Part shown: positions 1,743-19,160 of the stretch, piece by piece
Numbering within the stretch: position 1 is the stretch's first letter
How the letters are laid out: every line of letters begins with the position of its first letter
NCBI GenBank assembly: GCA_051652765.1
Contig: JBOFUV010000144.1
Span: forward strand, 1-22,588
From: Microcoleaceae cyanobacterium
Lineage (GTDB): Bacteria > Cyanobacteriota > Cyanobacteriia > Cyanobacteriales > Microcoleaceae
Length of the DNA stretch: 22,588 nucleotides
Reading direction: 5' to 3'
Notes under the pieces: model-generated
The model's database searches: none
What the model saw: the letters and a program-made list of their open reading frames with translations, nothing else
Told to the model about the DNA's origin: nothing
Translations under genes and position numbers: made by a program

Positions 1743-2693
1743 ATGGCGACGATCGGCCCACCCCCACCCCCACCATCTGCAAGCGAGTTAATTACGCCTA
1801 CATCCCCTTTCCCCCGACGGACAACTCATGGCGCTGACACTGTATATGCTCATGGTGGGGATGATACGGTCAGAGGTGGCGGCGGCAACGACTTGATCGA
1901 GGGTGGCTCAGGCAATGACAGTTTGCTCGGTGAGGCTGGACGAGACACAATCTATGGCGGTACTGGCACTGACAAACTTTATGGAGGGCCAGACAACGAT
2001 CATCTTGATGGCGGTACTGTTGACAGCTTCGATACTAGCAACGACACCCTTTATGGAGAGGGAGGGAGTGATTTTCTGTGGGGGGGGAGCGGTAAGGATT
2101 ATCTCTCTGGCGGAGATAATAACGACACTGTGAGAGGTCATGATAATGATGACAAGCTATTCGGTGGATCTGGTAATGACAGTTTGCTGGGTGAGAATGG
2201 CAACGATAACCTCCAAGGTGAAGCAGGTAGTGACAGCCTGTATGGGGGTTTTGGCAATGACGTGTTCAATGGCGGTTCTGAGAATGACTTCCTGTGGGGC
2301 GGAGGAGAGAACGATTTCCTGATTGGGTACAACGGCACAGACAAGCTGTATGGAGAGGATGGTAACGATACGTTAAACGGGCAAGCAGGCAACGATACTC
2401 TCACAGGCGGTGCAGGCGCAGATCAGTTCAAGTTTGAGGCTCTTTCAAATAAGGTTGATACAATCACAGACTTTGAATTCTCTCAAAGTGATTTTGTTGT
2501 TATTGTGAAATCAGGGTTTGGGGCAACTTCGTTGACTCAATTCACATCTGTATACAATTCATCCTCTCAGATCGACAGTCTGTACTTTGATGCATCTCCA
2601 ACGGATGGGGTTGCTCCTGTATTGGTTGCTCAATTTACAAACATGCCAAACGACGATGCTTTCATTCCTTCATTGGATATTCAGCTAATTTAG
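1743..2693 (+). CDS. RTX/hemolysin-type calcium-binding repeat protein 1
   Basis: Many GGxGxDxLx nonapeptides, Pro-rich N-terminus, no Sec signal, C-terminal DTITDF motif; AGGAG RBS. Confidence 0.92.
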   Translation: MATIGPPPPPPSASELITPTSPFPRRTTHGADTVYAHGGDDTVRGGGGNDLIEGGSGNDSLLGEAGRDTIYGGTGTDKLYGGPDNDHLDGGTVDSFDTSNDTLYGEGGSDFLWGGSGKDYLSGGDNNDTVRGHDNDDKLFGGSGNDSLLGENGNDNLQGEAGSDSLYGGFGNDVFNGGSENDFLWGGGENDFLIGYNGTDKLYGEDGNDTLNGQAGNDTLTGGAGADQFKFEALSNKVDTITDFEFSQSDFVVIVKSGFGATSLTQFTSVYNSSSQIDSLYFDASPTDGVAPVLVAQFTNMPNDDAFIPSLDIQLI

Positions 2694-2751
2694 ACAATGA
2701 ATGAATTGGGCTTGGCTAACATAATCAGGTTGTAATTACAAACTTTTTCTG

Positions 2752-2798
2752 AAGCGATCGCACTAATTCCTCGAGGAAAAGTGCGATCGCTTTCTCTT
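2752..2798 (+). terminator. HIP1-containing hairpin, probable terminator
   Basis: AAGCGATCGCACT ... AGTGCGATCGCTT inverted repeat built from two HIP1 sites, followed by a T-rich tract. Confidence 0.55.
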
Positions 2799-2832
2799 AA
2801 AGTCTAAAGGCTGCTGATAAAAGTTTTTCAAT

Positions 2833-2878
2833 TTTCCGAAAAAAACTGGCGCTACTTCAGAAACCTTAGTAGAACAAC
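2833..2878 (+). promoter_or_regulatory. Conserved upstream motif, copy C
   Basis: TTTCCGAAAAAAACTGGCGCTACTTCAGAAACCTTAGTAGAACAAC ends 28 bp before ATG 2907. Confidence 0.65.
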
Positions 2879-2906
2879 TCACTTGAAACTATAAGGAAGA
2901 ACCAAA

Positions 2907-3869
2907 ATGACAGCTCCTGGATTTGGATTTGGACCACCTGGATTTGGACCACCTGGAGACGACTTAATTACACCTACCAGCCCTTTACCCTTACGTACAA
3001 CCAATAACGCTGATACAGTACAGGCCCTTGGTGGGGCTGATACAGTCAGAGGCGGCGGCGGTAACGACTGGCTCGAGGGTAACTCAGGCAATGACAGTTT
3101 GCTTGGTGAGGCTGGACTGGATAGCCTTTATGGTGGTACTGGCGCTGACAAACTTTATGGAGGGCCAGACAACGATTATCTCGATGGCGGTACTGTTGAC
3201 AGCTTCGATACTAGCAACGACACCCTTTATGGAGAGGGAGGGAGTGATTTTCTGTGGGGGGGGAGCGGTGTGGATTGGCTCAATGGCGGAGACAACAATG
3301 ACACTGTGAGAGGTCATGATAATGATGACAAGCTATTCGGTGGATCTGGTAATGACAGCTTGCTGGGTGAGAATGGCAACGACAACCTCCAAGGTGAAGG
3401 AGGTAGTGACAGCCTATATGGTGATGCTGGCAATGACGTGTTCAATGGCGGCCCTGGCAATGATTTCATCTGGGGTGGAGGAGATAACGATTTCCTGATT
3501 GGGTACAACGGCACAGATAAGCTGTATGGAGAGGATGGTAACGATACGTTAAACGGGCAAGCAGGCAACGATACACTTACAGGCGGTGCAGGCGCAGATC
3601 AGTTCAAGTTCGAGGCTCTTTCAAATAAGGTTGATACAATCACAGACTTTGAATTCTCTCAAAGTGATTTTGTTGTTATTGTGAAATCAGGGTTTGGGGC
3701 AACTTCTCTTGCTCAATTCACATCTGTATTCAATTCATCCTCTCAGATCGACAGTCTGTACTTTGATGTTTCTCCAACTGACGGAGTTGCTCCTGTATTG
3801 GTTGCTCAATTTACAAACATGCCAAACGACGATGCTTTCATTCCTTCATTGGATATTCAGCTAATTTAG
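2907..3869 (+). CDS. RTX/hemolysin-type calcium-binding repeat protein 2 (paralogue of 1743..2693)
   Basis: GGxGxD repeats; C-terminal part nearly identical to protein 1; different N-terminus (PGFGFGPPGFGPPG). Confidence 0.92.
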   Translation: MTAPGFGFGPPGFGPPGDDLITPTSPLPLRTTNNADTVQALGGADTVRGGGGNDWLEGNSGNDSLLGEAGLDSLYGGTGADKLYGGPDNDYLDGGTVDSFDTSNDTLYGEGGSDFLWGGSGVDWLNGGDNNDTVRGHDNDDKLFGGSGNDSLLGENGNDNLQGEGGSDSLYGDAGNDVFNGGPGNDFIWGGGDNDFLIGYNGTDKLYGEDGNDTLNGQAGNDTLTGGAGADQFKFEALSNKVDTITDFEFSQSDFVVIVKSGFGATSLAQFTSVFNSSSQIDSLYFDVSPTDGVAPVLVAQFTNMPNDDAFIPSLDIQLI

Positions 3870-7795: not shown

Positions 7796-8048
7796 CACCC
7801 CCTAATGTGAAGCTTTCTCTCTGGTTTTGAAAGAGTTGATAAAGGGGGTTGCTCGTTTGGGGGTTAGGCTGAATACTGTAGGAAGGAACAAACAAATTTG
7901 ATGGATGAGCGGGCCTTCTGCATAGAGTTAAGGGATGAGGAACGGGAAGGCCAATTTCAAAACTAGTGATACGAGCTTCAGGGTGAGTTGAATCGAACGA
8001 CAGGAACTCGAAGTTAACAATTTTTTTAGTTATTGGAGATTAGTGAAT

Positions 8049-8807
8049 ATGAAGGGGTTAAAGTTGGTGGCTGCTACGGTGTTAGCAGTGGGGGCTGTTA
8101 TTGGGAGTGTTGTAGAGGGGGCGGCAGGAGTTACGCAAACTGGAACTCAACCAAAAGGTAGATCGGTTAACTCAACCACATTAGATTACAGTTTTACCTT
8201 GTTTCCTACAACAGAAGATCGTGATAGTGACAACACCAGAGGCTTTTTCCCAAATGTCATCACAGACTTTACTGGAGGATTTGATGATTTTGACAATCTT
8301 TTTACTTTTGACCTGATAGAAATTGTTGAATCTGACTTTGTTGATCCTTCTAAGATTAGTGTTAAGTCAGACGGTTCACTTGAAACTTATGAGCTGATTG
8401 ATGAACCTCTAAACCTTAACTTGAGAGCTAATTTGCAGGAATCAGATGACAGAATCGAGTACATTCTGCGGGGCGATCAACTTAGACAGAGAGGCATTAA
8501 TGGGTTAGCTTTGATTATTGATGGCTTTAGTAATCCTTTCCTCGATACTTTAGAAGAGCGAGAACTGGCTGTTAACGATTTGGATTACATCATTAACTAC
8601 GGATTGCTTGGACTAGTTAATCAGATTCGAGTTACAGGGCCATCCTCAAATGGTTCAGGAAGGATTGCGCGAAGCAGCGGTGGCGCTGACAGCGATGTTG
8701 AGTTCATTACTCGAACCATTCCCGAATCCAATCCCAGCAGCAGTCTGTTGGCTTTGGGAGCGCTAGGTGTTGGTCTAGGAGTGAAGTGTCGGTTTCAGAT
8801 GAAATAG
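8049..8807 (+). CDS. PEP-CTERM-type sorting domain surface protein 1
   Basis: Signal peptide MKGLKLVAATVLAVGAVIG; C-terminal IPESNPSSSLLALGALGVGLGVKCR (PE motif, TM helix, basic tail). GGAG at 8035-8038 favours ATG 8049 (alternative GTG 8043). Confidence 0.82.
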   Translation: MKGLKLVAATVLAVGAVIGSVVEGAAGVTQTGTQPKGRSVNSTTLDYSFTLFPTTEDRDSDNTRGFFPNVITDFTGGFDDFDNLFTFDLIEIVESDFVDPSKISVKSDGSLETYELIDEPLNLNLRANLQESDDRIEYILRGDQLRQRGINGLALIIDGFSNPFLDTLEERELAVNDLDYIINYGLLGLVNQIRVTGPSSNGSGRIARSSGGADSDVEFITRTIPESNPSSSLLALGALGVGLGVKCRFQMK

Positions 8808-8874
8808 TAAATTTTTGAACAGAGAAAGTGACTCGAAGTTAACAGTTTTTTTAGTTATTGGGAGACTAGTGAAT

Positions 8875-10194
8875 ATGAAGGGGTTAAAGTTGGTGGCTGC
8901 TACGGTGTTAGCAGTGGGGGCTGTTATTGGGAGTGTTGTAGAGGGGGCGGTGGGAGTTAAGCAGACTGGAATTAATCCTATTGGAGGCAGATTTGACTCA
9001 ACCGAATTAGATTACAGTTTTACTTTGTTTCCTACGGTAGAAGACCGTGATAGTGACAACACTAAAGGCTTTTTCCAAAATGCCATCACCGACTTTACTG
9101 GAGGGTTTGAGGATTTTGGTGATCTTTTTGCTTTTGACCTGATAGAAATTGTTAGCTCCGATGTAATTGCGGATGTTGATAGAAATGATAGTGGGTATGA
9201 ATTTATCGACGAACCTCTAACCCTTAACTTGAGAGCCAATTTGCAGGAATCAGATGACAGAATCGAGTACATTCTGGAGGGCTATAAACTTACAGAGAGA
9301 GGCGTTAACGGGTTAGCTTTGATTATTAACGACCTTAGTGTTAATTCTTTCCTCGATACTTTAGAAGAGCGTGAACTGGCTGTTAACGATTTGGATTACA
9401 TCATTAATAACAGATTACTTGGACTGATCGATGACATCCAAGTTACGGGGCCATCCTCAGATGGTTCAGGGATTGTTGTGCGAAACCCTGATAATTCGAG
9501 TCTTTCTGTTATCAGTGCTGAGTCCATTTCTCGACTTATAGCCGGTAATAAAGCCACTGGAAACAGATTTGACTCAACCGAATTAGATTACAGTTTTACT
9601 TTGTTTCCTACGGTAGAAGACCGTGATGTGGACAACACCAAAGGCTTTTTCCAAAATGCCATCACCGACTTTACTGGAGGGTTTGAGGATCTTGATGATC
9701 TTTTTGCTTTTGACCTTCTAGAAATTGTCGAGTCCAGCGTAATTGAGGACAATGACATTACTGACATCGGGTATGAATTTATCGACGAACCTCTAACCCT
9801 TAACTTGAGAGCCAATTTGCAGGAATCAGATGACAGAATCGAGTACATTCTGCGGGGCGATCAACTTAGACGGAGAGGCATTAATGGGTTAGCTTTGACT
9901 ATTGATGACCTTAGTAATCATTCTTTCCTCGATACTTTGGAAGAGCGTGAACTGGCTGTTAACGATTTGGATTACATCATTGGCAAAGGCTTACTTGGAC
10001 TAGTTAATGATATTCGAGTTACGGGTCTGTCTTCAGATGGTTCAGGAAGGATTGCGCGAAGCAGCGGTTTTGATGAAGCCAATGTTGAGTTCATTGTTCG
10101 ACCCATTCCCGAATCCAATCCCAGCAGCAGTCTGTTGGCTTTAGGAGCGTTAGGTGTTGGTCTAGGAGTGAAGCGTCGGTTGCAGATGAAATAG
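8875..10194 (+). CDS. PEP-CTERM-type surface protein 2, with internally duplicated core domain
   Basis: Same signal peptide and IPESN...VKRR tail as protein 1; core RFDSTELDYSFTLFPT... occurs twice, 576 bp apart. Start placed at ATG 8875 by paralogue alignment. Confidence 0.82.
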   Translation: MKGLKLVAATVLAVGAVIGSVVEGAVGVKQTGINPIGGRFDSTELDYSFTLFPTVEDRDSDNTKGFFQNAITDFTGGFEDFGDLFAFDLIEIVSSDVIADVDRNDSGYEFIDEPLTLNLRANLQESDDRIEYILEGYKLTERGVNGLALIINDLSVNSFLDTLEERELAVNDLDYIINNRLLGLIDDIQVTGPSSDGSGIVVRNPDNSSLSVISAESISRLIAGNKATGNRFDSTELDYSFTLFPTVEDRDVDNTKGFFQNAITDFTGGFEDLDDLFAFDLLEIVESSVIEDNDITDIGYEFIDEPLTLNLRANLQESDDRIEYILRGDQLRRRGINGLALTIDDLSNHSFLDTLEERELAVNDLDYIIGKGLLGLVNDIRVTGLSSDGSGRIARSSGFDEANVEFIVRPIPESNPSSSLLALGALGVGLGVKRRLQMK

Positions 10195-10260
10195 TAAATT
10201 TTTGAACAGAGAAAGTGACTCGAAGTTAACAGTTTTTTTAGTTATTGGAGATTAGTGAAT

Positions 10261-10968
10261 ATGAAGGGGTTAAAGTTGGTGGCCGTTACGATGTTAACGG
10301 TTGGGGCCGCTTTTGGGAGTGTTGTAGAGGGGGCGGTGGGAGTTACGCAGACAGGAAGTGGAGCAAAAGGTGGATCGTTTGACGAAATTACATTAGATTA
10401 CAGCTTTAAGTTATTTCCTACAGCAACAGATGCAGATCCTAGAAATAGAAGAGGATCTTTTTCAAATGTAATTACAGACTTTACTGGAAGCTTTGAAGAA
10501 GATATAAATAACCGTTTCACCTTTAATAGCCCATTGAAAATCAGTGAGCCTTTAACTCTCAATCTCAATACAGTTTTATTTGATAGGAGAATTGAGTATA
10601 TTTTGTCCGGCGATGATTTGGAAAATAAAGGAATCACGGAGCTTGCTCTAATTATTGATGAGGAATCCAGTGATTTTCCGCCTCTATTTAGTAATATTGA
10701 TAGTTTGGATTCTTCGAGGGAACGAAGACAAGCTGTTAATTCTCTGGAATATATCATTAATGAACAGTTATTAGAACTTGTAAATACCATTCGGGTAAGT
10801 GGGCCATCATTTAGTAATCCAGATGTAATAGTTTCAGTTCCTAGCAATGCTTCTGATACAGAGGCTGAAATTATTACAATTCCCGAAGTAAATTCCAGCA
10901 ACAGTCTATTGGTTTTAGGAGCGCTAGGTGTTGGTTTGGGAGTGAAGCGTCGGTTTCAGATGAAATAG
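10261..10968 (+). CDS. PEP-CTERM-type surface protein 3 (diverged core)
   Basis: Similar signal peptide, LDYSFKLFPT core motif, IPEVNSSNSLLVLGALGVGLGVKRR tail. Confidence 0.82.
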   Translation: MKGLKLVAVTMLTVGAAFGSVVEGAVGVTQTGSGAKGGSFDEITLDYSFKLFPTATDADPRNRRGSFSNVITDFTGSFEEDINNRFTFNSPLKISEPLTLNLNTVLFDRRIEYILSGDDLENKGITELALIIDEESSDFPPLFSNIDSLDSSRERRQAVNSLEYIINEQLLELVNTIRVSGPSFSNPDVIVSVPSNASDTEAEIITIPEVNSSNSLLVLGALGVGLGVKRRFQMK

Positions 10969-10992
10969 TAAATTTTTTTGAATTGGTGGTGG
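10968..10992 (+). repeat. Left 25-bp direct repeat bounding the island
   Basis: GTAAATTTTTTTGAATTGGTGGTGG is 24/25 identical to 18936-18960. Confidence 0.75.
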
Positions 10993-10999
10993 TATGGTC

Positions 11000-11240
11000 G
11001 CCCCCCTAGCCCTCCAACCTTGGGGAGCTTCAAAGCTTCGCCCCCCTAGCCCCCCAACTTTGGGGGGGAACCGGAATCTAAGTCAAAGCCCCCAGAATTG
11101 GGGGTTTGGGGGCAATGCAGGACGGGGGGGGAACTGGAGTCAATGGGGGATTTAGGGGACTTTGAATTTTCGCCCCCCTAGCCCCCCAATTCTTGGGGGG
11201 AACCAGAGTCCAAGTCAAAGTCCCCCAGAATTGGGGGCTT
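11000..11240. repeat. Cluster of C5/G5 palindromic dispersed repeats (CCCCCAGAATTGGGGG type)
   Basis: Several CCCCC(T)AGCCCCCAA..TTGGGGG and CAAAG(T)CCCCCAGAATTGGGGG units; related copies at 11859-11930, 18812-18890, 19020-19115 and 22328-22378. Confidence 0.8.
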
Positions 11241-11802: not shown

Positions 11803-11832
11803 GATTCTCTTACCCTCTGAAGAAGAAAAAGA

Positions 11833-11977
11833 GGTATTGCTGAATGGCGGGATGAATTCGCCCCCCAGCCCCCAATTCTGGGGGAGCCGGATTTCTCAAA
11901 GTCCCCCAAGCTTGGGGGATTTAGGGGGCGAGGAAACTTACAACTCAGACAGATTCATCTCTACATTTAGCAACGCC
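11833..11977. mobile_element. MITE (145 bp) with 25-bp imperfect terminal inverted repeats and 8-bp target-site duplication
   Basis: Left end GGTATTGCTGAATGGCGGGATGAAT, right end ATTCATCTCTACATTTAGCAACGCC; GAAAAAGA duplicated at 11825-11832 and 11978-11985. Confidence 0.8.
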
Positions 11978-12070
11978 GAAAAAGAGACCTATCGTTGGAG
12001 TGCATCTCTACTATTATCGTATCAGTTCAGCAACGCCATAAATCCGTGTTGGGTTGCATTTGAGTTTAGA

Positions 12071-12246
12071 TTGATTGCTCATCAAACCCCCATTGATCTC
12101 AAACTCAGATCAAGTTGATCGCAGAGCATTTGCCCGTTGATCTCACTCCAAACCCGCGTTGATCTCACACTAAACCCGCATTGATCTCACACTAAACCCG
12201 CATTGATCTCATACCAAACCCGCATTGATCTCACTCCAAACCCGCG
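12071..12246 (+). repeat. Tandem array of 8 x 22-bp units (TTGATCTCACWCYAAACCCGCR)
   Basis: Units start at 12071, 12093, 12115 (degenerate) and 12137, 12159, 12181, 12203, 12225 (conserved); no spacers. Confidence 0.9.
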
Positions 12247-12252
12247 TTAGTT

Positions 12253-12490
12253 ATGATTCCTGACAATGTCAAGCTGGGACGGCGAGTCATCATCCATCAC
12301 CCAAGTGGAACTGTCATTCATGGGAATCGCCAGATTGGGGATGACTGCATTCTTCGCTAGAGCAAAAATTTTAGGCCAGATGACAATTGGGGATGGTGCC
12401 AGTATTGGGGCAAATGCGGTTGCTTTAGTGGATGTTTCACCGGGGCAAACAGCGATTGGAATTCCAGCAAAAATCGCTGCTGCTAATTAA
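12253..12490 (+). pseudogene. Serine O-acetyltransferase-like (CysE/WcaB hexapeptide repeat) pseudogene fragment
   Basis: Frame 1 gives MIPDNVKLGRRVIIHHPSGTVIHGNRQIGDDCILR*; a second frame continues AKILGQMTIGDGASIGANAV...TAIGIPAKI. The N-terminus and the middle segment are missing. Confidence 0.75.
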
Positions 12491-12674
12491 GAGTTAGGGG
12501 CCAAGCCTGATTTATGTTGGTAGTTCAAGCCTTTTTATAATAAATGTCGAGATCGCTAGCTACTCGGAACAGAACTCAAAAGAGAGGTAATCTTCTACCC
12601 TATTTCTGAATAGAGTTTGGCACTTGCAACTAGTTGATAAGACCGTTGTGCAGACCTAATCCAGAAACGAACTA

Positions 12675-12759
12675 TGCTAATAGTGAAGTTGTGCGGCGGC
12701 AGATAACCTTTGCATCACCGCCAAGAGCTTGCGCCCGTCCGTTGAGCGCATTGTTAGCT
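12675..12759 (-). mobile_element. Degenerate integron attC site
   Basis: Minus strand: R'' AGCTAAC overlaps the TAA stop of the restriction gene. The centre (CGGACGGGCGCAAGCTCTTGGCGGTGATGCAAAGGTTATCTGCCGCC) resembles the other attC sites. R' reads ATTAGCA instead of GTT, and the L boxes pair poorly. Confidence 0.6.
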
Positions 12760-13488
12760 GTCGCCATTACGCTTGATCTCGCGCTCAATAATCTCTTTGA
12801 CAAACTCAGGCAGTCCCTTTTCTACACTGACAGCCATTTGCTTGAGCCTTTCATAAATCTCAATGTCATCACCTTCCCAAAGTAGATCTATTCTTCTGAC
12901 CTGCCGCATCGCGATATGCTCATAGCTTTCTGGATACGCCCAGTAGCAGGATAGACAAATCAACTTATCCTTAATACTGTTCCAGTTTTCGCAGTGTTCG
13001 CACGACCAGGATTTAGCCCGGTTAGCAGAGCCACAAAGCAACATGAAGTTTTCTGGATTTAGATCTGGCTCACCATCAACTTCAAAAGGAACACGATGAT
13101 CAATTTGCAACTCGCGTTCATCTACCTCTTCAAGATAAATAAAACATTTACATCCGTATCTGTTAATTAGTGCCTCTTTAATCTGCTTGGATAAACCTGT
13201 TCTTCCAGAAAGACGAGTGAATCTTGCCTTACTAATATCTCCAAACCGATATGCAGCTATTTTTCTGCCGTCACTTCCAGTAACACGAAAAGTCTCTAAC
13301 AGGATACCATTTTCTCTAACATCTCTAGCTGCTCTTGGAGGATGGTTATAACTGTAGGTTTCTTTCAATTCCTCAGTTGTGATAAATCCGTGTTGCAAGA
13401 TGTGATCAATAACCGCCTTCGGTCTTTTTGCTGTTATGGAGCGGCAAAGTTGCAAGAAGTCATCTGATAGCTGCTGCGAATTCTCCAT
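12754..13488 (-). CDS. HNH-type Type II restriction endonuclease, SphI/NspI-like
   Basis: HNH core LQIDHRVPF...LLCGSANRAKSWSCEHC with Cys pairs; HPPRAARD and DGRKIAAY motifs as I recall from R.SphI; overlaps an adenine MTase gene. Confidence 0.8.
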   Translation of the reverse strand: MENSQQLSDDFLQLCRSITAKRPKAVIDHILQHGFITTEELKETYSYNHPPRAARDVRENGILLETFRVTGSDGRKIAAYRFGDISKARFTRLSGRTGLSKQIKEALINRYGCKCFIYLEEVDERELQIDHRVPFEVDGEPDLNPENFMLLCGSANRAKSWSCEHCENWNSIKDKLICLSCYWAYPESYEHIAMRQVRRIDLLWEGDDIEIYERLKQMAVSVEKGLPEFVKEIIEREIKRNGDS

Positions 13489-14413
13489 GTTTTTCTAGAA
13501 GAGTTAGTTGCTTTGGTCTCTGGCAAATATAGCTGAAATCGCTGATTTGAGTAGTCGTTAGGCTTCTGGATAAACTTGGTGACAAGTACAATGATTCAAC
13601 CGTAGTTTCCTCCTTGCCAAGTAATGTAGACTGTGAAGATCTGCCAACTTCGATTTCGATTCTTTCAAGATTTAAGCTCTTAGGAAGAACCTTGCCAAAA
13701 GCCTTATCACCCAACTTACCATCGTAACTGATAGCAAATGCAGCTCCTTTTTGATTTAACCGTTCAAGTGCCAATACAAAATCGTCGAAATCTATCCCAG
13801 ACAGATATCTTGAATCTCTATTTCCGCATACACCTTGATACGGAGGATCCATGTAGATAAAACAATTATCCTGAATTTGCTCTAATACTTCTCGATAATC
13901 CAAGCCCGTAAACTTGCATTTGCCTTTAAGCAGACTAGATACACCTGCTATATTTTTTCTCATCGTCTCAGGTCGTGTTCCTTTGCGTCTTTTGTCTGGG
14001 CTTTGGTTGAAAAATCCCTCAGAATTGTAACGAACTGAACCTTTAACGCATCTTGCTAGTAAATAAAGGAATAATTTTGGATCATTAGTCTCATTAAATC
14101 TTGACCTAACTTCAGAATAATGAGCTACAGAATTAGTATGTTGTTCATTCCATAGTTCTAAGTAGAAATCTGCTATCTCATTCGGTTCTTCTATAGCTAA
14201 TTCTAGTAGCTCGATTAGAGGCTTATTCAGATCATTTAACCAAAAACTACTGGCAATCTGATTTGCAGATGTAGCAACACTAATTGCAGCAGTTCCAGCA
14301 AAAGGCTCTACCAGTCTTTTGATATTTTTTGGAAAAACCTGGAGAATGTGTTTTGCCAAATTTCTTTTGCTGCCTTGATATTGAATGAAATGGGGTAGAT
14401 TTGCCATCGCCAT
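13460..14413 (-). CDS. N6-adenine DNA methyltransferase, D12/Dam-like (alpha group), cognate to the adjacent REase
   Basis: Motif X YQGSKR, motif I LVEPFAG, motif IV YMDPPY. Likely start ATG 14413 or 14407; the longer ORF-track start lies in the attC site. Confidence 0.9.
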   Translation of the reverse strand: MAMANLPHFIQYQGSKRNLAKHILQVFPKNIKRLVEPFAGTAAISVATSANQIASSFWLNDLNKPLIELLELAIEEPNEIADFYLELWNEQHTNSVAHYSEVRSRFNETNDPKLFLYLLARCVKGSVRYNSEGFFNQSPDKRRKGTRPETMRKNIAGVSSLLKGKCKFTGLDYREVLEQIQDNCFIYMDPPYQGVCGNRDSRYLSGIDFDDFVLALERLNQKGAAFAISYDGKLGDKAFGKVLPKSLNLERIEIEVGRSSQSTLLGKEETTVESLYLSPSLSRSLTTTQISDFSYICQRPKQLTLLEKHGEFAAAIR

Positions 14414-14524
14414 ACAAGAACAAATAATCTTGCAGCAGTTTATCACGATAGTTTGAGCTTGTCGCTTAACTCCAGTATCTTTTCCAAGAGTGGTAGAGCA
14501 GGGAGCGGAACTAAAGCTTAAGAC

Positions 14525-14601
14525 GGCTAACATTCCCGTTCAGCGGCTCTTTGCATCCACCCAAAATCTTTCGACAGTCCGCTCCAACCGGGTTGTTGGA
14601 G
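14525..14601 (-). mobile_element. Integron attC site
   Basis: Minus strand CTCCAAC-AACCCG-GTT[G]GAGCGG[A]CT ... AGCCGCTGAAC-GGGAAT-GTTAGCC: R''/R' cores, paired arms, two extrahelical bases; 77 bp, just downstream of hicA. Confidence 0.8.
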
Positions 14602-14621
14602 CGCTTACGCCGCGCTCACCC

Positions 14622-14831
14622 TTACTCCAAATCTCCTTCTCCCAGTTCAGCGTCTTTCATGATGCTTTTCAGAGTACCTTTCGGCAAATCCCGATTACTA
14701 TGAACAGGAATAGAAAGAATGGCATCAATCCCTTCTTTAGCGTAAATGTGATGGCTACCAGTAACTCGTTTTAGCTCCCACCCATTTCGCTCTACAATCT
14801 TGCAAAGCGTTTTGCCAGAAATTGATTTCAT
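14622..14831 (-). CDS. hicA: HicA family toxin (mRNA interferase)
   Basis: GWELKRVTGSHHIY, IPVH, DLPKGTLKSIMKDA; 4-bp overlap with hicB. Confidence 0.92.
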   Translation of the reverse strand: MKSISGKTLCKIVERNGWELKRVTGSHHIYAKEGIDAILSIPVHSNRDLPKGTLKSIMKDAELGEGDLE

Positions 14832-15031
14832 AAAGATAGCTCGATCAATTGCTTTTCTGGCTCAAGTTCTTCTCGTCCACTTGCAACTTCTAACCAGCCT
14901 TCAACAGCATCTTCAATCATCTCTAATAAATGCTCATAGCTCTCTCCCCAAGTATGGCAACCGGGGAGAGCAGGTACAGAAGCGCACCATACATCATCAT
15001 CTTCTCGCCAAATAATTGCTTTAATTTTCAT
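14828..15031 (-). CDS. hicB: HicB family antitoxin (short form, no DNA-binding domain)
   Basis: ASVPALPGCHTWGESYEHLLEMIEDAVEGWL partial RNase H-fold motif. Confidence 0.92.
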   Translation of the reverse strand: MKIKAIIWREDDDVWCASVPALPGCHTWGESYEHLLEMIEDAVEGWLEVASGREELEPEKQLIELSL

Positions 15032-15089
15032 ACCTTTAAGCTATGCCGAAAGAGCTTTCAATCAAGATTTTAGCGCATCTGGCTGGGCA

Positions 15090-15183
15090 GCCTTACAAGT
15101 CAATATTTTGAGCGCGTCCATGTAGCGAAACCTGAGTTAGAGTTAGACCACGTTCGTTGCGGGGTGCATGGGCGTTGTTATGC
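15090..15183 (-). mobile_element. Degenerate/chimeric attC-like site
   Basis: The minus-strand left arm GCATAAC-AACGC-CCATGCAC is attC-like and lies ~20 bp after a stop codon. The right arm does not pair, and the best R' is GTAAGGC. Confidence 0.45.
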
Positions 15184-15201
15184 CGTTTTACACAATAAGT
15201 T

Positions 15202-15480
15202 TCAAGCACTTTGGTGAACTTCAAGGCTAGATAGACGGCCTTCAATCTCATATTCATCTTCCAGTAGCCAGAGTTGAGCTTCTTCATAATTCTGAAAAGC
15301 TTTTACAAGCCTATAGTGCTCAGCGGGGTCAAAAACATAACAACCCTCCCTTTTGTTACCTAGCAGCAGCAAGACATAGGGCGGTGATTGCATTGAATCT
15401 ACCCAAACTTCTAAGAAGTTCCAGTCATCCTTCACTAGGTCGGGTGCGAGGAATCGCGTGGTATCGGTTGTTTGCATCAA
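15202..15480 (-). CDS. Hypothetical acidic protein (possible immunity/antitoxin)
   Basis: 92-aa ORF with a protein-like, aromatic/acidic composition (EVWVDSMQSPPYVLLL, YEEAQLWLLEDEYE); overlaps the upstream gene. Confidence 0.65.
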   Translation of the reverse strand: MMQTTDTTRFLAPDLVKDDWNFLEVWVDSMQSPPYVLLLLGNKREGCYVFDPAEHYRLVKAFQNYEEAQLWLLEDEYEIEGRLSSLEVHQSA

Positions 15481-15784
15481 TTTTTACCTCACCGTAGAAC
15501 AAAGGAGTTCTTGAACTGTCTGGGCTAACCCGATAGCCGATCGCTTCAGTAAAAAATAGCCCATAGCGCTCGTAGTTTTGAACGCTGCCCGTGTATTCAC
15601 CTCCCTCTATAATAGCTTGAGCAACTTGCAGCATCGTATCTTCATCATTGAAAACATGAATTGCTCGCCCTAATGGAGTACTCGCTCTTAAGATAAGCAA
15701 CTGTTCAGTGCAATGTTTGTAAAAATCGGTATAACTAAAGAGATTTGATATTAACGGGGTTGTTGATATGAAAGAGATTGTCAT
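15425..15784 (-). CDS. Hypothetical protein (possible nuclease toxin; N-terminus may be replaced or truncated)
   Basis: The C-terminal ~80 aa (IHVFND...YERYG...IGYR...YGEVKI...YHAIPR) look like a folded domain; the first ~35 aa look atypical. Confidence 0.55.
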   Translation of the reverse strand: MTISFISTTPLISNLFSYTDFYKHCTEQLLILRASTPLGRAIHVFNDEDTMLQVAQAIIEGGEYTGSVQNYERYGLFFTEAIGYRVSPDSSRTPLFYGEVKIDANNRYHAIPRTRPSEG

Positions 15785-15808
15785 TTGCTAATCTTCACGT
15801 TCTCTCTG

Positions 15809-15850
15809 AACAGTTCTGCATCTTCTACTAATTTATGCAGGACTGTTTTA
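15809..15850. terminator. Intergenic hairpin, possible terminator
   Basis: AACAGTTCTGCAT-N13-ATGCAGGACTGTT inverted repeat directly after the stop of the 15855..16382 gene. Confidence 0.4.
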
Positions 15851-15854
15851 AACT

Positions 15855-16382
15855 TTATATGAATCTTCCAGAATGATGTTGCTTAATCAAATCAAATTTG
15901 GCTTTCTTCAGTCCCTTTCTCTCTTCCCAGAATTTGGTAGCAAACTCAAACATTGGCCAGTTCCAATGCTTCAAATATTCTTCCGGTAAGGCTGGCCAAA
16001 TGCAACGATTGGCCTCACCATGATTCATCCATTCTCCTTGGGCATAGTCTGCCAGTTTATCTTTTAGGGCAGACCATGAGTCATCCGGCAGCACAGACAG
16101 CAAGGCACGGGAATAGATAACGACTTTCAGATACTTGTGTTTCTTGAACCACTCGTGGAACACATCAAAAATCTCGCGCTCAAATACTGGGTTGTACCAG
16201 GCACATCCACCCGACTCCAGGAAAATATCAGTCAGCGTTGTGGTGTCGAGGAGGTCGTTAGGAGTTTCCTCGAAGAACCACTGCTCCTCAGAACAGGAGA
16301 TTGCTTGGTTCACTTCAAACTGATACTGCTCCAGGGTTAAACCCCGCACTCTCACTTCAGCTAGATTCTCAGAGAAGCTCAT
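15855..16382 (-). CDS. Hypothetical protein (175 aa, Trp/Phe-rich)
   Basis: Long ORF; likely ATG at 16382 overlaps the end of the upstream gene by 14 bp; no recognised motif. Confidence 0.7.
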   Translation of the reverse strand: MSFSENLAEVRVRGLTLEQYQFEVNQAISCSEEQWFFEETPNDLLDTTTLTDIFLESGGCAWYNPVFEREIFDVFHEWFKKHKYLKVVIYSRALLSVLPDDSWSALKDKLADYAQGEWMNHGEANRCIWPALPEEYLKHWNWPMFEFATKFWEERKGLKKAKFDLIKQHHSGRFI

Positions 16383-16743
16383 CGGGATCGACCTCTGCAT
16401 CATCGGTAAAAGCAAACTCTGTGTTGTCCTTTGCCCACTTCCCAGGTGATTTGCCTAAGCTTTCAAGTTCTGCGGGCGATCGCCGTCGTCCCAAAAACTC
16501 ACTGGTTTGGGTTCGCCTCAGCAACTCCCTGATCTGCTCAGCATCACCCCGATTCTTAATTTCAATCGGGCTGAACCCGGTAGTCAGCTTGATGATATTG
16601 ATCACTGCACCAATGTTTGCGCCGTATTCCTTCAGGAAATCAAAGAAGGACTTGGCATCTCTATAATAAGCAGTTGACACCTCCCAATCTTCTAACTGGT
16701 CGATGTACTGATCAATTAGCATTAGCGCTTCAGAAACGTCCAT
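16369..16743 (-). CDS. Hypothetical protein (124 aa)
   Basis: AGAGGA RBS shortly before the ATG; coupled to the downstream ORF; no recognised motif. Confidence 0.72.
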   Translation of the reverse strand: MDVSEALMLIDQYIDQLEDWEVSTAYYRDAKSFFDFLKEYGANIGAVINIIKLTTGFSPIEIKNRGDAEQIRELLRRTQTSEFLGRRRSPAELESLGKSPGKWAKDNTEFAFTDDAEVDPDELL

Positions 16744-17144
16744 GTTTTATTCCTCTACTATCCAAAATAGTACTACCATTGACTTCTTTTTCATCAAATC
16801 GTTCAGACTCTGGGCAGCTCTGAAAGAGCTGGTCAAAAGCCTTCTCCTGCTAAGCACTTCTCAAAAATCCCCTGGCAAAATCCCCAGGAGAAACCTGACA
16901 ACATAATTGATCCTCTCCAGAATTTTGTGGGTTGACAGAGAGATCTGACTTAATTCCCTGGGTAGTCAGGGAGTTAGGAAATGCAACCGGGTGGCATTTT
17001 GCCACATGGTCAGGGGGATTGGCAGGGAAATCTGAATTAACTTTTTGGGCAGTCGGAGAGTTACAGACTTCTTCAAGCTGGTTGATCTTGCCTTCCAAAT
17101 TCCTCAAATTTTCTTCAGCACACACACGGTGAGTGGGTGGGTTA

Positions 17145-17233
17145 TACCAATTCTGAACGGTTATGCACTAAATGATCGAGTGCCACCACCTCAGATACCC
17201 AACTATTCAGTGCAATCTCTGTAGAAATTGGTA
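17145..17233. mobile_element. Small MITE-like palindromic element (89 bp) with TTA duplication
   Basis: Ends TACCAATT ... AATTGGTA, inner TGCACTAAAT/ATTCAGTGCA pairing, flanked by TTA at 17142-17144 and 17234-17236. Confidence 0.62.
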
Positions 17234-17506
17234 TTACTTGATTTGTTAGCTCTGAGCAAATCAAGAAGATTGTCTGCTGTGCGAACTTGAATAGTGAGCT
17301 TTGTCATGGATTTGGATGAGGAACTACGGAAATACCGATTTGCGGCATAAGCTGAGGGTAAAAACCCATAACTTGGCTCCAATTAATGGCAGCCCGAACC
17401 TAATCCCAAAAGCCTTTAGCGGGGTTAAGCGATCAATCAGGGTCAACTATTTAGGGGGTGGGTCATCTGGATCTTCCTGCTTCCGCCATTTTTTATAGGC
17501 TGAGCG

Positions 17507-17593
17507 GTATAACGACCCAAATCAGGGGCAGCAAATAACGCTGAACTCAGCACCAGCAGCTTTCAACTGTCCGCTGCATTTGAATTGTTAGAC
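17507..17593 (-). mobile_element. Integron attC site (best conserved)
   Basis: Minus strand GTCTAAC-AATTC-AAAT[G]CAGCGG[A]CAG ... CTGCCCCTGATTT-GGGTC-GTTATAC: RYYYAAC/GTT cores, 5-bp spacers, L''/L' pairing with extrahelical G and A; 87 bp. Confidence 0.88.
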
Positions 17594-17850
17594 CTGCTCA
17601 ACCCCAACCTGCGGCGCATTTCTGCACTAGAAATTCCACCTTCAGAGCGTCGCGTTGCCCTCGATCGCTCAATCAACTCAATGAACTTTGAGTTGGTACT
17701 TAGCGAAATAGTCTCCATGTCAACATTTTCAAGTGTGACTAATGCTGCAATGGGTTGACCGTTGCTAGTTATAATAACTGGCTCCTCAGCCAGAACTGAA
17801 GCATACTTGGCTAGTGTTTCGGTTGCCTCTGAGATTTCAACAATTTTCAT
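17563..17850 (-). CDS. Phd/YefM-like antitoxin
   Basis: MKIVEISEATETLAKY...EEPVIITSNGQPIAALV Phd-type N-terminus; 4-bp overlap with the toxin gene; 3' end runs into attC. Confidence 0.85.
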   Translation of the reverse strand: MKIVEISEATETLAKYASVLAEEPVIITSNGQPIAALVTLENVDMETISLSTNSKFIELIERSRATRRSEGGISSAEMRRRLGLSRSNNSNAADS

Positions 17851-18146
17851 AGGTCGTAAACCTCTCCTGCAATGCGGACTTGACTTCGCTCCTTGATCCC
17901 GACTGCGTTGATGTACACAACTGCTTCGGGTTCCTCCTCTACATCATAGTAGACGCGCAAGTCGCCGATGCGAAGTTCCCAAGGAGCAAGCAGATTGGGA
18001 CGCATCGGTTTACGGTTTTTCGTCTCGACTGTTGGCTGATACATAAGCTGCTCATCAACAGTATCCAAAATAATCGCTTGTTGTCGGGCTGTAAGGTATC
18101 GTAAATGCACTTCTGATTCTGATGAATATTCTACACGGTAAACCAA
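17847..18146 (-). CDS. RelE/ParE family toxin
   Basis: YRVEYS...WELRIGDLRVYYDV...VYINAVG RelE-type motifs; TTG start. Confidence 0.87.
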   Translation of the reverse strand: MVYRVEYSSESEVHLRYLTARQQAIILDTVDEQLMYQPTVETKNRKPMRPNLLAPWELRIGDLRVYYDVEEEPEAVVYINAVGIKERSQVRIAGEVYDL

Positions 18147-18179
18147 GCTACTAAAACTCTCAACGTCAATGACAGAAGT

Positions 18180-18209
18180 TTACAGTGAAGCACGGTCACA
18201 CGGGTTCAT
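18180..18209 (-). pseudogene. Possible N-terminal stub of a HEPN/DUF86 (HepT) toxin gene
   Basis: MNPCDRASL* starts within the last codons of the MNT gene, where hepT normally begins, and resembles DUF86 N-termini (..RDxASL..). Confidence 0.35.
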
Positions 18210-18525
18210 AGGCTTGCGAATAGATAACTTGGGCTGTATTGAGGATTTCGTTACGACGAATCCAATTTTCACTCTTTTCAATCACGCGCTTTTCGATCAA
18301 GTCAACGTCACGCTGCACAATCTGCTGGAGTTCTTGCTGCATTATGACGAGGTCAAGTAATGTCCAAGGGGCATGAGGAAAGAAGCTGACTAACACATCT
18401 AAGTCGCTGTCTGGGCGGAAGTCGTCGCGCAACACCGAGCCAAACAAGGCAAATTCAGCAATCTGCCACTTTTGGCAAAAGGATTTGATCAGCTCTATTG
18501 ATAAGTCGATCGCACTCAGATTCAT
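18196..18525 (-). CDS. Minimal nucleotidyltransferase (MNT/MntA-like antitoxin)
   Basis: LFGSVLRDDFRPDSDLDVLV (GS..DxD) and RDVDLIE motifs. Confidence 0.92.
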   Translation of the reverse strand: MNLSAIDLSIELIKSFCQKWQIAEFALFGSVLRDDFRPDSDLDVLVSFFPHAPWTLLDLVIMQQELQQIVQRDVDLIEKRVIEKSENWIRRNEILNTAQVIYSQAYEPV

Positions 18526-18531
18526 TAGGGT

Positions 18532-18798
18532 TTACCCCACGCTAAAGACTTTCATGACTTCATCACCGAGATGATTGCTCACTTTGACCGCGATGCGTTC
18601 AGAGTTGGGTTTGTGGAACGATCGAGAGGTGTTGCCATAGAGGCTTTCCCCGGCGGTTTTGTCAATTTCGGCTTTGAGGTTGGTTTTGAGCTACTTGTAA
18701 GGATCACTCGCACCCAGAAAATAGGCGTGGCGGATGAAGAAGCTTTCTTCATTGTAGTCCGTATTAATAAACCAGCAGGCAATGCTGTCGGCTCCGCT
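18532..18798 (-). pseudogene. C-terminal fragment of an adenine DNA methyltransferase (Type III R-M Mod-like)
   Basis: Manual translation IACWFINTDYNEESFFIRHAYFLGASDPYK*LKTNLKAEID...RIAVKVSNHLGDEVMKVF; in-frame TAG at 18691-18693; 5' part replaced by repeat DNA. Confidence 0.75.
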
Positions 18799-18811
18799 CG
18801 ATTCAACGCAG

Positions 18812-18935
18812 AAGCTTTGCCCCCCTGGCCCCCCAACCTTGGGGGGAACTGGAATCAAAGCTCCCAGAATTGGGGGTTCGGGGGCAATATAGCATTACAG
18901 GGTTTGAAAGATTCATCTCTTAGTTCAGCAACGCC
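18812..18935. mobile_element. Truncated MITE of the 11833-11977 family (right end only)
   Basis: C5/G5 hairpins followed by ATTCATCTCTTAGTTCAGCAACGCC, matching the right TIR of the complete MITE. Confidence 0.65.
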
Positions 18936-18960
18936 GTAAATTTTTTTGAATTGATGGTGG
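18936..18960 (+). repeat. Right 25-bp direct repeat bounding the island
   Basis: GTAAATTTTTTTGAATTGATGGTGG is 24/25 identical to 10968-10992. Confidence 0.75.
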
Positions 18961-19160
18961 GTTGTTGACGGTTTTGGTGAGAACATCAGTTGTAGGGCTA
19001 AGTTCCTCGCGATCACCTTTGGCCCTCTAACCTTTAGGGTTTGGGAGATTTAGGGGGCAATGCAGGACTGGGGGAACTGGAATCAAAGCCCTCTAACCTT
19101 GGGGGCTCGGGGGCTTTTAATGACAGCAAACTTGACGTTCACCCACTCAACCATCAAAAC

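What the first reader, a model, noticed from the sequence alone, without database searches (positions are those of the whole stretch)
12675..18150. Integron-like cassette array (CALIN) carrying defence and toxin-antitoxin genes in a cyanobacterium
Seen: four attC-like sites on the minus strand (12675-12759, 14525-14601, 15090-15183, 17507-17593), each at the 3' end of a co-oriented two-gene module (MTase+REase, hicBA, unknown pair, relE/phd). Two show the full architecture of R''/R' cores, L boxes and two extrahelical bases. Three share an internal signature (CGGAC.G..G.AAG.T..TGG). The R-M module starts G|TTAGCC and ends AGCTAAC, a 6/7 complementary match expected for an excisable cassette. 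Known: integron arrays are rich in TA and anti-phage genes. Inference: this is an integrase-less array, served in trans or derived from a chromosomal integron elsewhere in the genome.
Basis: partly seen in the sequence, partly recalled or inferred. Interest (0 to 1): 0.85.

Follow-up and report, generated by a model that had tools for sequence, protein, structure and literature searches.

The report
Decayed integrase-less defence cassette array
This is a real but worn-down row of integron gene cassettes carrying predicted restriction-modification and toxin-antitoxin genes, one of about 40 such clusters in a cyanobacterial assembly that shows no intact integrase gene, so it is likely frozen in place rather than still being shuffled.

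Summary
Mostly real, but decayed. 15090-15183 is only a left half-site. The methyltransferase plus HNH nuclease module is a true cassette: 25 of 76 homologous loci start at the same G|TTAGCCG junction behind unrelated DNA, and 16 of 80 end in an attC. relE/phd sits in another cyanobacterium's three-attC array. Here, however, the distal attC reads ATT instead of GTT, three modules have lost their 5' ends, a non-cassette gene pair interrupts the array, and there is no attI or intI. The assembly has no intact intI, only 18 5' stubs, with 92 attC-like sites in 40 clusters. It meets the CALIN definition, but 'served in trans by an integron elsewhere in the genome' is not supported. This scan already reported the scattered integrase-less platforms on other contigs of this genome. 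The window is one more, more eroded, example.

The parts
12038..12248 (+). Tail of 21-nt tandem repeats, the same tail that follows the intI stubs of the dispersed platforms; the stub and attI themselves are absent here
   Evidence: matches at C71, C88, C61, C116, C34, C146
12249..12490 (+). Broken hexapeptide-repeat (acetyltransferase-like) gene fragment joined to the tail
   Evidence: its end also follows the tail on C61
12526..12680 (-). Likely start of a further, truncated cassette after the distal attC
   Evidence: 83% match to C34:76652-76793, where it follows an attC right-arm remnant and begins G|TT
12675..12759 (-). attC of the R-M cassette; damaged (ATT instead of GTT, mismatched L box, mosaic arms)
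   Evidence: 46.8 bits; arm comparison
12681..14530 (-). R-M gene cassette, 1850 bp, whole
   Evidence: same start junction in 25 of 76 and attC at the stop in 16 of 80 homologous loci
12754..13488 (-). HNH-type type II restriction endonuclease candidate, 244 aa; its stop codon lies in R''
   Evidence: PADLOC PDLC03566 E 6e-58; 5309 homologues
13460..14407 (-). Dam/D12-class N6-adenine methyltransferase; start placed by comparison with homologues
   Evidence: PF02086, TIGR00571, PADLOC PDLC03341
14525..14601 (-). attC after hicA; GTT and AAC intact, 9-nt loop deletion, L-box mismatches
   Evidence: 41.9 bits
14622..15110 (-). hicB (14828-15031) and hicA (14622-14831) with leader; the cassette's 5' junction is lost
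   Evidence: PF15919, PF07927; G352 homology extends to 15110
15162..15183 (-). Half attC (left arm only)
   Evidence: no model hit; <=3 mismatches over 22 nt to three full sites
15202..15671 (-). DUF6972 gene (5'-truncated, homology begins at 15671) plus a 92-aa partner (15202-15480); possible toxin-partner pair
   Evidence: PF22319; Ntox50-like by language-model features, 0.94 (a lead only); homologues carry an N-terminus missing here; attC-like end in G076 and a collapsed attC in G004
15855..16743 (-). Non-cassette pair of unknown genes (186 aa, 124 aa) interrupting the array
   Evidence: 85% identical in congener G001 with no attC nearby; no family found
17507..17593 (-). Best-preserved attC (extrahelical T and C six bases apart on the bottom strand)
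   Evidence: 70.8 bits
17563..18189 (-). relE (17847-18146) and phd (17563-17850) with leader; cassette 5' part lost
   Evidence: G183 carries it at 88% in a three-attC array with ~310 bp more 5' sequence
18196..18800 (-). Minimal nucleotidyltransferase gene (18196-18525) and an upstream broken gene end, joined directly to the relE leader; no attC or attI

Best explanation
This is a decayed, integrase-less remnant of an integron cassette array: three full-length attC sites and one half site follow modules that were likely loaded by an integron integrase no longer intact in this assembly, and the array is now likely frozen. Steps. (1) Shown: the sites fold as attC bottom-strand hairpins with family covariation. 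(2) Shown by comparison: the R-M and relE/phd modules occur as cassettes with precise junctions in other cyanobacteria. (3) Inferred: IntI inserted them by bottom-strand attC x attI recombination at one of this lineage's many attI platforms; the platform's repeat tail survives at 12038-12248. (4) Shown: the cassette 5' ends, the third attC and any attI/intI are missing, and unrelated genes lie inside. Deletion and insertion as the cause is inferred. (5) Inferred: with no Pc/attI upstream, the modules must rely on their own promoters, and the TA and R-M pairs are retained by addiction or defence value. (6) Predicted: a supplied IntI would act mainly on 17507 x 14525, removing about 3 kb that includes hicBA; the R-M cassette should excise poorly because its attC has lost the GTT crossover match.
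For: Model hits and strand bias; covariation; 25 of 76 R-M homologues share the start junction behind attC ends or attI-like sites, and L099 lies beside a truncated intI; 16 of 80 have an attC at the stop; none of the 80 loci shares the window's neighbours apart from one Uma2 hit; relE/phd in G183's array; no intact intI, 18 stubs, 12 of them broken at codon 21 with the same tail; 21 attI-core matches in the genome, none in the window; the closest intI, in congener G002, is 91-92% identical to the longest remnant and itself has a stop. The crossover lies in the conserved AAC triplet, which gives the microhomology for strand transfer (PMC5027507, passages).
Against: No empty site or syntenic locus was found in the two congeners, so the order of events is not observed. 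Arm pairing of this genome's attC set is no worse than in genomes with intact intI (7.5 vs 7.6, p=0.86), so genome-wide decay of attC is not shown. hicBA homologues mostly lack an attC (one weak hit near hicA among 21 loci). A consensus scan found no excess of promoters (6 vs 10.3 in shuffles) and none in front of the modules. relE/phd is separated from the rest by 2.3 kb of mostly non-cassette DNA and may be a separate insertion. The assembly is a 158-contig draft.
Confidence: 0.68

Rival explanations
1. The locus is a cluster of independent single-cassette insertions at secondary (attG) sites inside a defence island, not the remnant of one attI-headed array.
For: No attI in the window; 20 of 40 clusters in the genome are single sites; non-cassette DNA separates relE/phd from the rest; attG insertion and small CALINs are described (10.1101/2022.09.11.507474, passages).
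Against: hicBA-attC runs directly into the R-M cassette's conserved G|TTAGCC start; the DNA after two of the attC sites looks like further cassette starts; no interrupted target gene with both halves was found; the platform tail lies at the distal end.
Confidence: 0.15
2. The array is still active and is served in trans by an integrase elsewhere in the cell (an unassembled replicon, or one brought in transiently).
For: 61 of 72 scored sites keep both AAC and GTT; intI above the cut-off exists in 4 of 41 genomes searched, one with a stop; the assembly is a draft.
Against: No intI-like hit beyond residue 117 in G000 apart from two weak generic tyrosine recombinases; assembly 99.97% complete by markers; this array's sites and cassette ends are damaged.
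Confidence: 0.08
3. The present arrangement was built mainly by homologous recombination between similar attC sites and platform repeats, without integrase.
For: Two of the window's three sites have arms that each pair better with an arm of another site; 7 of the 15 worst-paired sites have both arms pairing well elsewhere, against 34 of 300 in simulated point decay (binomial p=0.0007); G016 has tandem units with one such mixed site.
Against: A looser version of the test did not discriminate (11 of 15 vs 192 of 300); the control is crude; poorly paired sites are as common in genomes with intact intI (6 of 20 vs 16 of 42); the precise G|TT junctions need IntI at some stage.
Confidence: 0.07
4. 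The sites are a dispersed non-integron repeat (REP- or MITE-like) that only resembles attC.
For: High copy number and dispersal over many contigs.
Against: Conserved AAC/GTT core, two extrahelical bases, covariation, overlap with stop codons, position next to intact intI in G016 and G036.
Confidence: 0.02

Closest known systems
[quoted passage not shown] 2016, PMC4889954; passages read)
   Same: At least two same-strand attC sites under 4 kb apart, no intI nearby, small array, no resistance genes; cyanobacteria are listed there among integron hosts.
   Different: One of 40 clusters in a genome with 18 intI stubs and about 20 attI cores; no description of that dispersal was found in my searches.
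SALIN / attG insertions (Loot et al., 10.1101/2022.09.11.507474; passages read)
   Same: Cassettes away from any attI or intI; offers a route to scattered small clusters.
   Different: Here two cassettes are joined through attC, and no clean attG target could be shown.
Sedentary chromosomal integrons with TA cassettes (Richard et al. 2024, PMC13108822; abstract and outline only)
   Same: TA modules as cassettes; addiction would penalise excision.
   Different: No single large array, no working integrase; the anti-phage cassette papers on Vibrio and mobile integrons are recalled, not read here.
Cyanobacterial attC class (Ghaly et al. 2021, PMC8352920; passages read)
   Same: A Cyanobacteria-specific attC model exists; my model finds the same site family in 22 of 41 genomes searched.
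   Different: The published model was not available, so membership of that exact class was not tested.
Type II restriction-modification, Dam/D12 MTase plus HNH nuclease (PADLOC PDLC03341 and PDLC03566)
   Same: Both profiles match over nearly their full length; the two genes co-occur in 78 of 80 loci.
   Different: Target site and activity unknown; no solved relative.

Membership tests
attC site | R''/R' core with AAC and GTT that pair on the bottom strand | tested here: met
   Met by 14525-14601 and 17507-17593; 12675-12759 has ATT; 15090-15183 has no R'
attC site | L box and two extrahelical bases on one arm | tested here: met
   Family structure T-N6-C with covariation, a type excised by several IntIs (PMC3053210, passages); near-complete at 17507, imperfect at 14525, broken at 12675
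attC site | Bottom strand preferred over top | tested here: met
   70.8 vs 17.3 bits at 17507; no top-strand hit for the other two. The model was built on bottom strands, so this leans that way
attC site | Match to the IntegronFinder or published cyanobacterial covariance model | not testable with these tools
   Rfam has no hit in the window; the published models are not held
attC site | Recombined by IntI | not testable with these tools
   Needs a conjugation or excision assay
CALIN | Two or more attC sites, same strand, under 4 kb apart | tested here: met
   Three sites, gaps 1.8 and 2.9 kb
CALIN | No intI nearby | tested here: met
   No tblastn hit better than E 2.4 on the 22.6-kb contig
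Complete integron | intI, attI and Pc in cis | tested here: not met
   No attI core at <=4 mismatches and no platform match in the window
Array served in trans | Intact intI elsewhere in the genome | tested here: not met
   draft assembly
Gene cassette (R-M module) | Same precise ends in unrelated contexts | tested here: met
   25 of 76 and 16 of 80 loci
Gene cassette (hicBA module) | Same precise ends in unrelated contexts | tested here: inconclusive
   One weak attC hit near hicA among 21 loci; R''-like end in G039
Type II R-M system | Site-specific cleavage and protective methylation | not testable with these tools
   Profile matches only

The most novel reading that the evidence does not exclude
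This cyanobacterial lineage keeps a dispersed cassette bank that no longer depends on a resident integrase: attI-plus-stub platforms and arrays are copied around the chromosome, and defence cassettes are reshuffled by homologous recombination between near-identical attC sites (leaving mosaic arms, as at two of this window's sites), with IntI needed only occasionally and from outside.
Probability: 0.2. Interest if true: 0.75.

Novelty: new member of a known kind. Interest (0 to 1): 0.38.

Why it matters
The window itself is an ordinary, eroded CALIN. Two things have value. It shows that a complete methyltransferase-HNH nuclease pair circulates across cyanobacteria as one 1.85-kb cassette with fixed ends, and it adds a late-stage example to a genome with far more attC sites than its relatives (74 model hits; next highest 19 of 40 others, with a model trained on this genome). 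If such scattered integrase-less arrays can be reactivated or reshuffled, cyanobacterial attC-flanked genes are a ready list of candidate defence genes, and the open question of how CALINs arise in genomes without intI becomes testable in a transformable host.

Tried and rejected
Rfam scan: no hit. A heuristic attC scanner had a high background (17 strong hits vs 8 in shuffles) and was used only to seed profiles. Unconstrained folding did not give the attC fold for 12675-12759 and did not separate the strands. The idea that intI travels inside an attC-bounded unit was considered from G016's tandem units, but the far ends of the tails vary and share no junction; not supported. An attG insertion into a gene at 17512 was tested; no intact target gene was found in 5 genomes. 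No syntenic or empty locus in the two congeners. Genome-wide attC decay without integrase: not supported (p=0.86). The count of 42 of 80 'stop overlaps CTAAC' was dropped because the stop codon biases it. The internal signature (3 of 7 genome hits in this window) was defined from these sites, so it is not used as evidence. Promoter scan: at chance level. No function for the 186-aa protein (atlas best 0.82) or the 92-aa partner (169 homologues, nearly all unnamed). No solved relative of the nuclease. Sequencing runs: none was listed.
Full report
Setting. The window is the whole of contig C144 in a 5.04-Mb, 158-contig assembly, 99.97% complete by markers. The cyanobacterial assignment rests on the named relatives of its genes.

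The sites. A heuristic scan seeded a profile with three window sites and seven from other contigs; after four rounds it found 93 hits, 87 at E<1e-3. Ninety-two fall into 40 clusters by a 4-kb rule, 20 of them single, the largest seven; 21 of the 40 lie more than 2 kb from both contig ends (read), so contig breaks explain only part of the scatter. For a test that leaves the window out of training I aligned 20 well-formed sites from other contigs (they were first found with the window-seeded profile). The attC bottom-strand structure holds: 86.6% of cells paired, 63 cells with changes on both sides against 24 in shuffles, 23-46% paired when slid. It gives 81 hits genome-wide. The family has extrahelical T and C six bases apart, a type several integrases excise (PMC3053210, passages).

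Condition of each site. 17507-17593 has one inner mismatch. 14525-14601 keeps AAC and GTT but has a 9-nt loop deletion and L-box mismatches. 12675-12759 ends ATT instead of GTT and its L box is mismatched. The crossover falls in that triplet, which supplies microhomology (PMC5027507, passages), so poor recombination is predicted. 15090-15183 matches three full sites over its first 22 nt, but its supposed R' lies in hicB leader that G352 shares to 15110 without an attC hit: it is a half site.

Are the modules cassettes? R-M: yes. Of 194 loci encoding the nuclease the best 80 were kept; 78 also encode the MTase. Twenty-five of the 76 with enough upstream DNA begin with the same G|TTAGCCG junction, preceded by unrelated DNA: attC ends (L091, L096, L103) or attI-like sites, in L099 beside a truncated intI. 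Sixteen of 80 have a model hit (E<0.01) at or just after the stop. The remaining 64 do not, so many copies have lost the site or never had it. None shares the window's neighbours, apart from one Uma2 hit. relE/phd: G183 has it at 88% identity through the attC, in a three-attC array, with about 310 bp more 5' sequence than the window; here a nucleotidyltransferase gene abuts the cut. DUF6972 pair: found in 19 of 150 other genomes of the order; one has an attC-like end (24.8 bits), G004 a collapsed site; the window copy lacks the N-terminus seen in homologues. Language-model features link DUF6972 to Ntox50, a lead only. hicBA: one weak hit near hicA among 21 loci, so cassette status rests mainly on this window. 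The pair at 15855-16743 is 85% identical in congener G001, where no attC is found; it is not a cassette.

Integrase. No match reaches the TIGR02249 cut-off in this genome (best 63.9 of 265 bits). A near-complete IntI from congener G002 finds 18 places, all within residues 1-117. Twelve of the 18 break at codon 21 and continue with the same tail of 21-nt repeats; upstream they share about 235 bp with spaced palindromes ending in an attI-like junction. An attI-core pattern matches 21 places, one probably by chance, none in the window, and the contig has no intI trace. The window does hold the tail, at 12038-12248 beyond the distal attC. Among 41 genomes searched, 4 have an intI over the cut-off, one of them (G002) with a stop. 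Model hits: 74 here, at most 19 in the 40 others, none in G001 (trained on this genome, 108 candidates scored per genome).

Mechanism. Best reading (0.68): an IntI-built array, or pieces of more than one, that lost its attI and integrase head and was then trimmed and invaded. The attC structure, the cassette junctions and the missing parts are shown; loading by IntI, the order of events, reliance on own promoters and retention by addiction are inferred, the last by analogy with PMC13108822 (abstract only). Rivals: independent attG insertions (0.15; 10.1101/2022.09.11.507474, passages), an active array served in trans (0.08), building by homologous recombination (0.07), a non-integron repeat (0.02). 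On mosaic arms, a strict test was positive (7 of 15 vs 34 of 300 simulated) and a loose one was not (11 of 15 vs 192 of 300), and pairing is no worse than in 20 sites from three genomes with intact intI. Natural transformation feeding cassettes to chromosomal integrons is described for Vibrio (PMC12614218, abstract only).

What is known. The element meets the CALIN definition of PMC4889954 (passages). A cyanobacterial attC model is published (PMC8352920, passages) but could not be run. Six literature searches listed no paper on dispersed integrase-less platforms in cyanobacteria; the library lacks most subscription papers and I opened no supplements. I found the platforms; the look-up then showed that this scan had already reported them several times on other contigs of this genome.

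Verdict. Observation partly confirmed; interpretation partly supported. A new member of a known kind, interest 0.38. The more unusual feature belongs to the genome, not to this window, and has been noted before.

Noticed in passing
G000 C21:29912-30043 and copies on C10, C22, C30, C34, C50, C67, C74, C82, C103, C116, C136: A ~130-bp cassette body with no obvious gene, 84-98% identical, recurs in about a dozen arrays, once or twice directly behind an attI core; possibly a promoter or founder cassette.
   Followed up: partly
G000 C134:29824-30156: A short cassette between two attC sites that holds only the MTase end and nuclease start of a relative of the window's R-M cassette, apparently an internal deletion.
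   Followed up: partly
L052-L054 (G016:C1 about 4478000-4501000): Tandem units, each with intI (two intact, others broken), a different cassette and an attC followed by the same sequence, in a complete genome.
   Followed up: partly
G000 C116:2175-2866, C61:33215-34047, window 12038-12759: In three places an attC of the same orientation lies beyond the platform tail, i.e. on the intI 3' side, as if platforms sit inside or between arrays.
   Followed up: partly
upstream of the intI stubs, e.g. L001:1250-1480: Five palindromic repeats spaced about 45 bp apart lead up to attI; already noted by this scan.
   Followed up: partly
window 1743-3869 and 8043-10968: Two near-duplicate RTX-repeat genes and three paralogous genes ending in a PEP-CTERM-like tail (name recalled, no profile hit); no DNA match in the two congeners.
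   Followed up: no
window about 10990-11200, 11830-12038, 18810-19120: Copies of a multi-copy short repeat with CAGCAACGCC-type ends; one abuts the platform tail where the intI stub would be.
   Followed up: no
L021 (G028) both ends of the R-M genes: Degenerate attC-like remnants on both sides, each beside a GCGATCGC motif.
   Followed up: no
G000 C22:53918-54006: One attC in inverted orientation within a five-site cluster.
   Followed up: no
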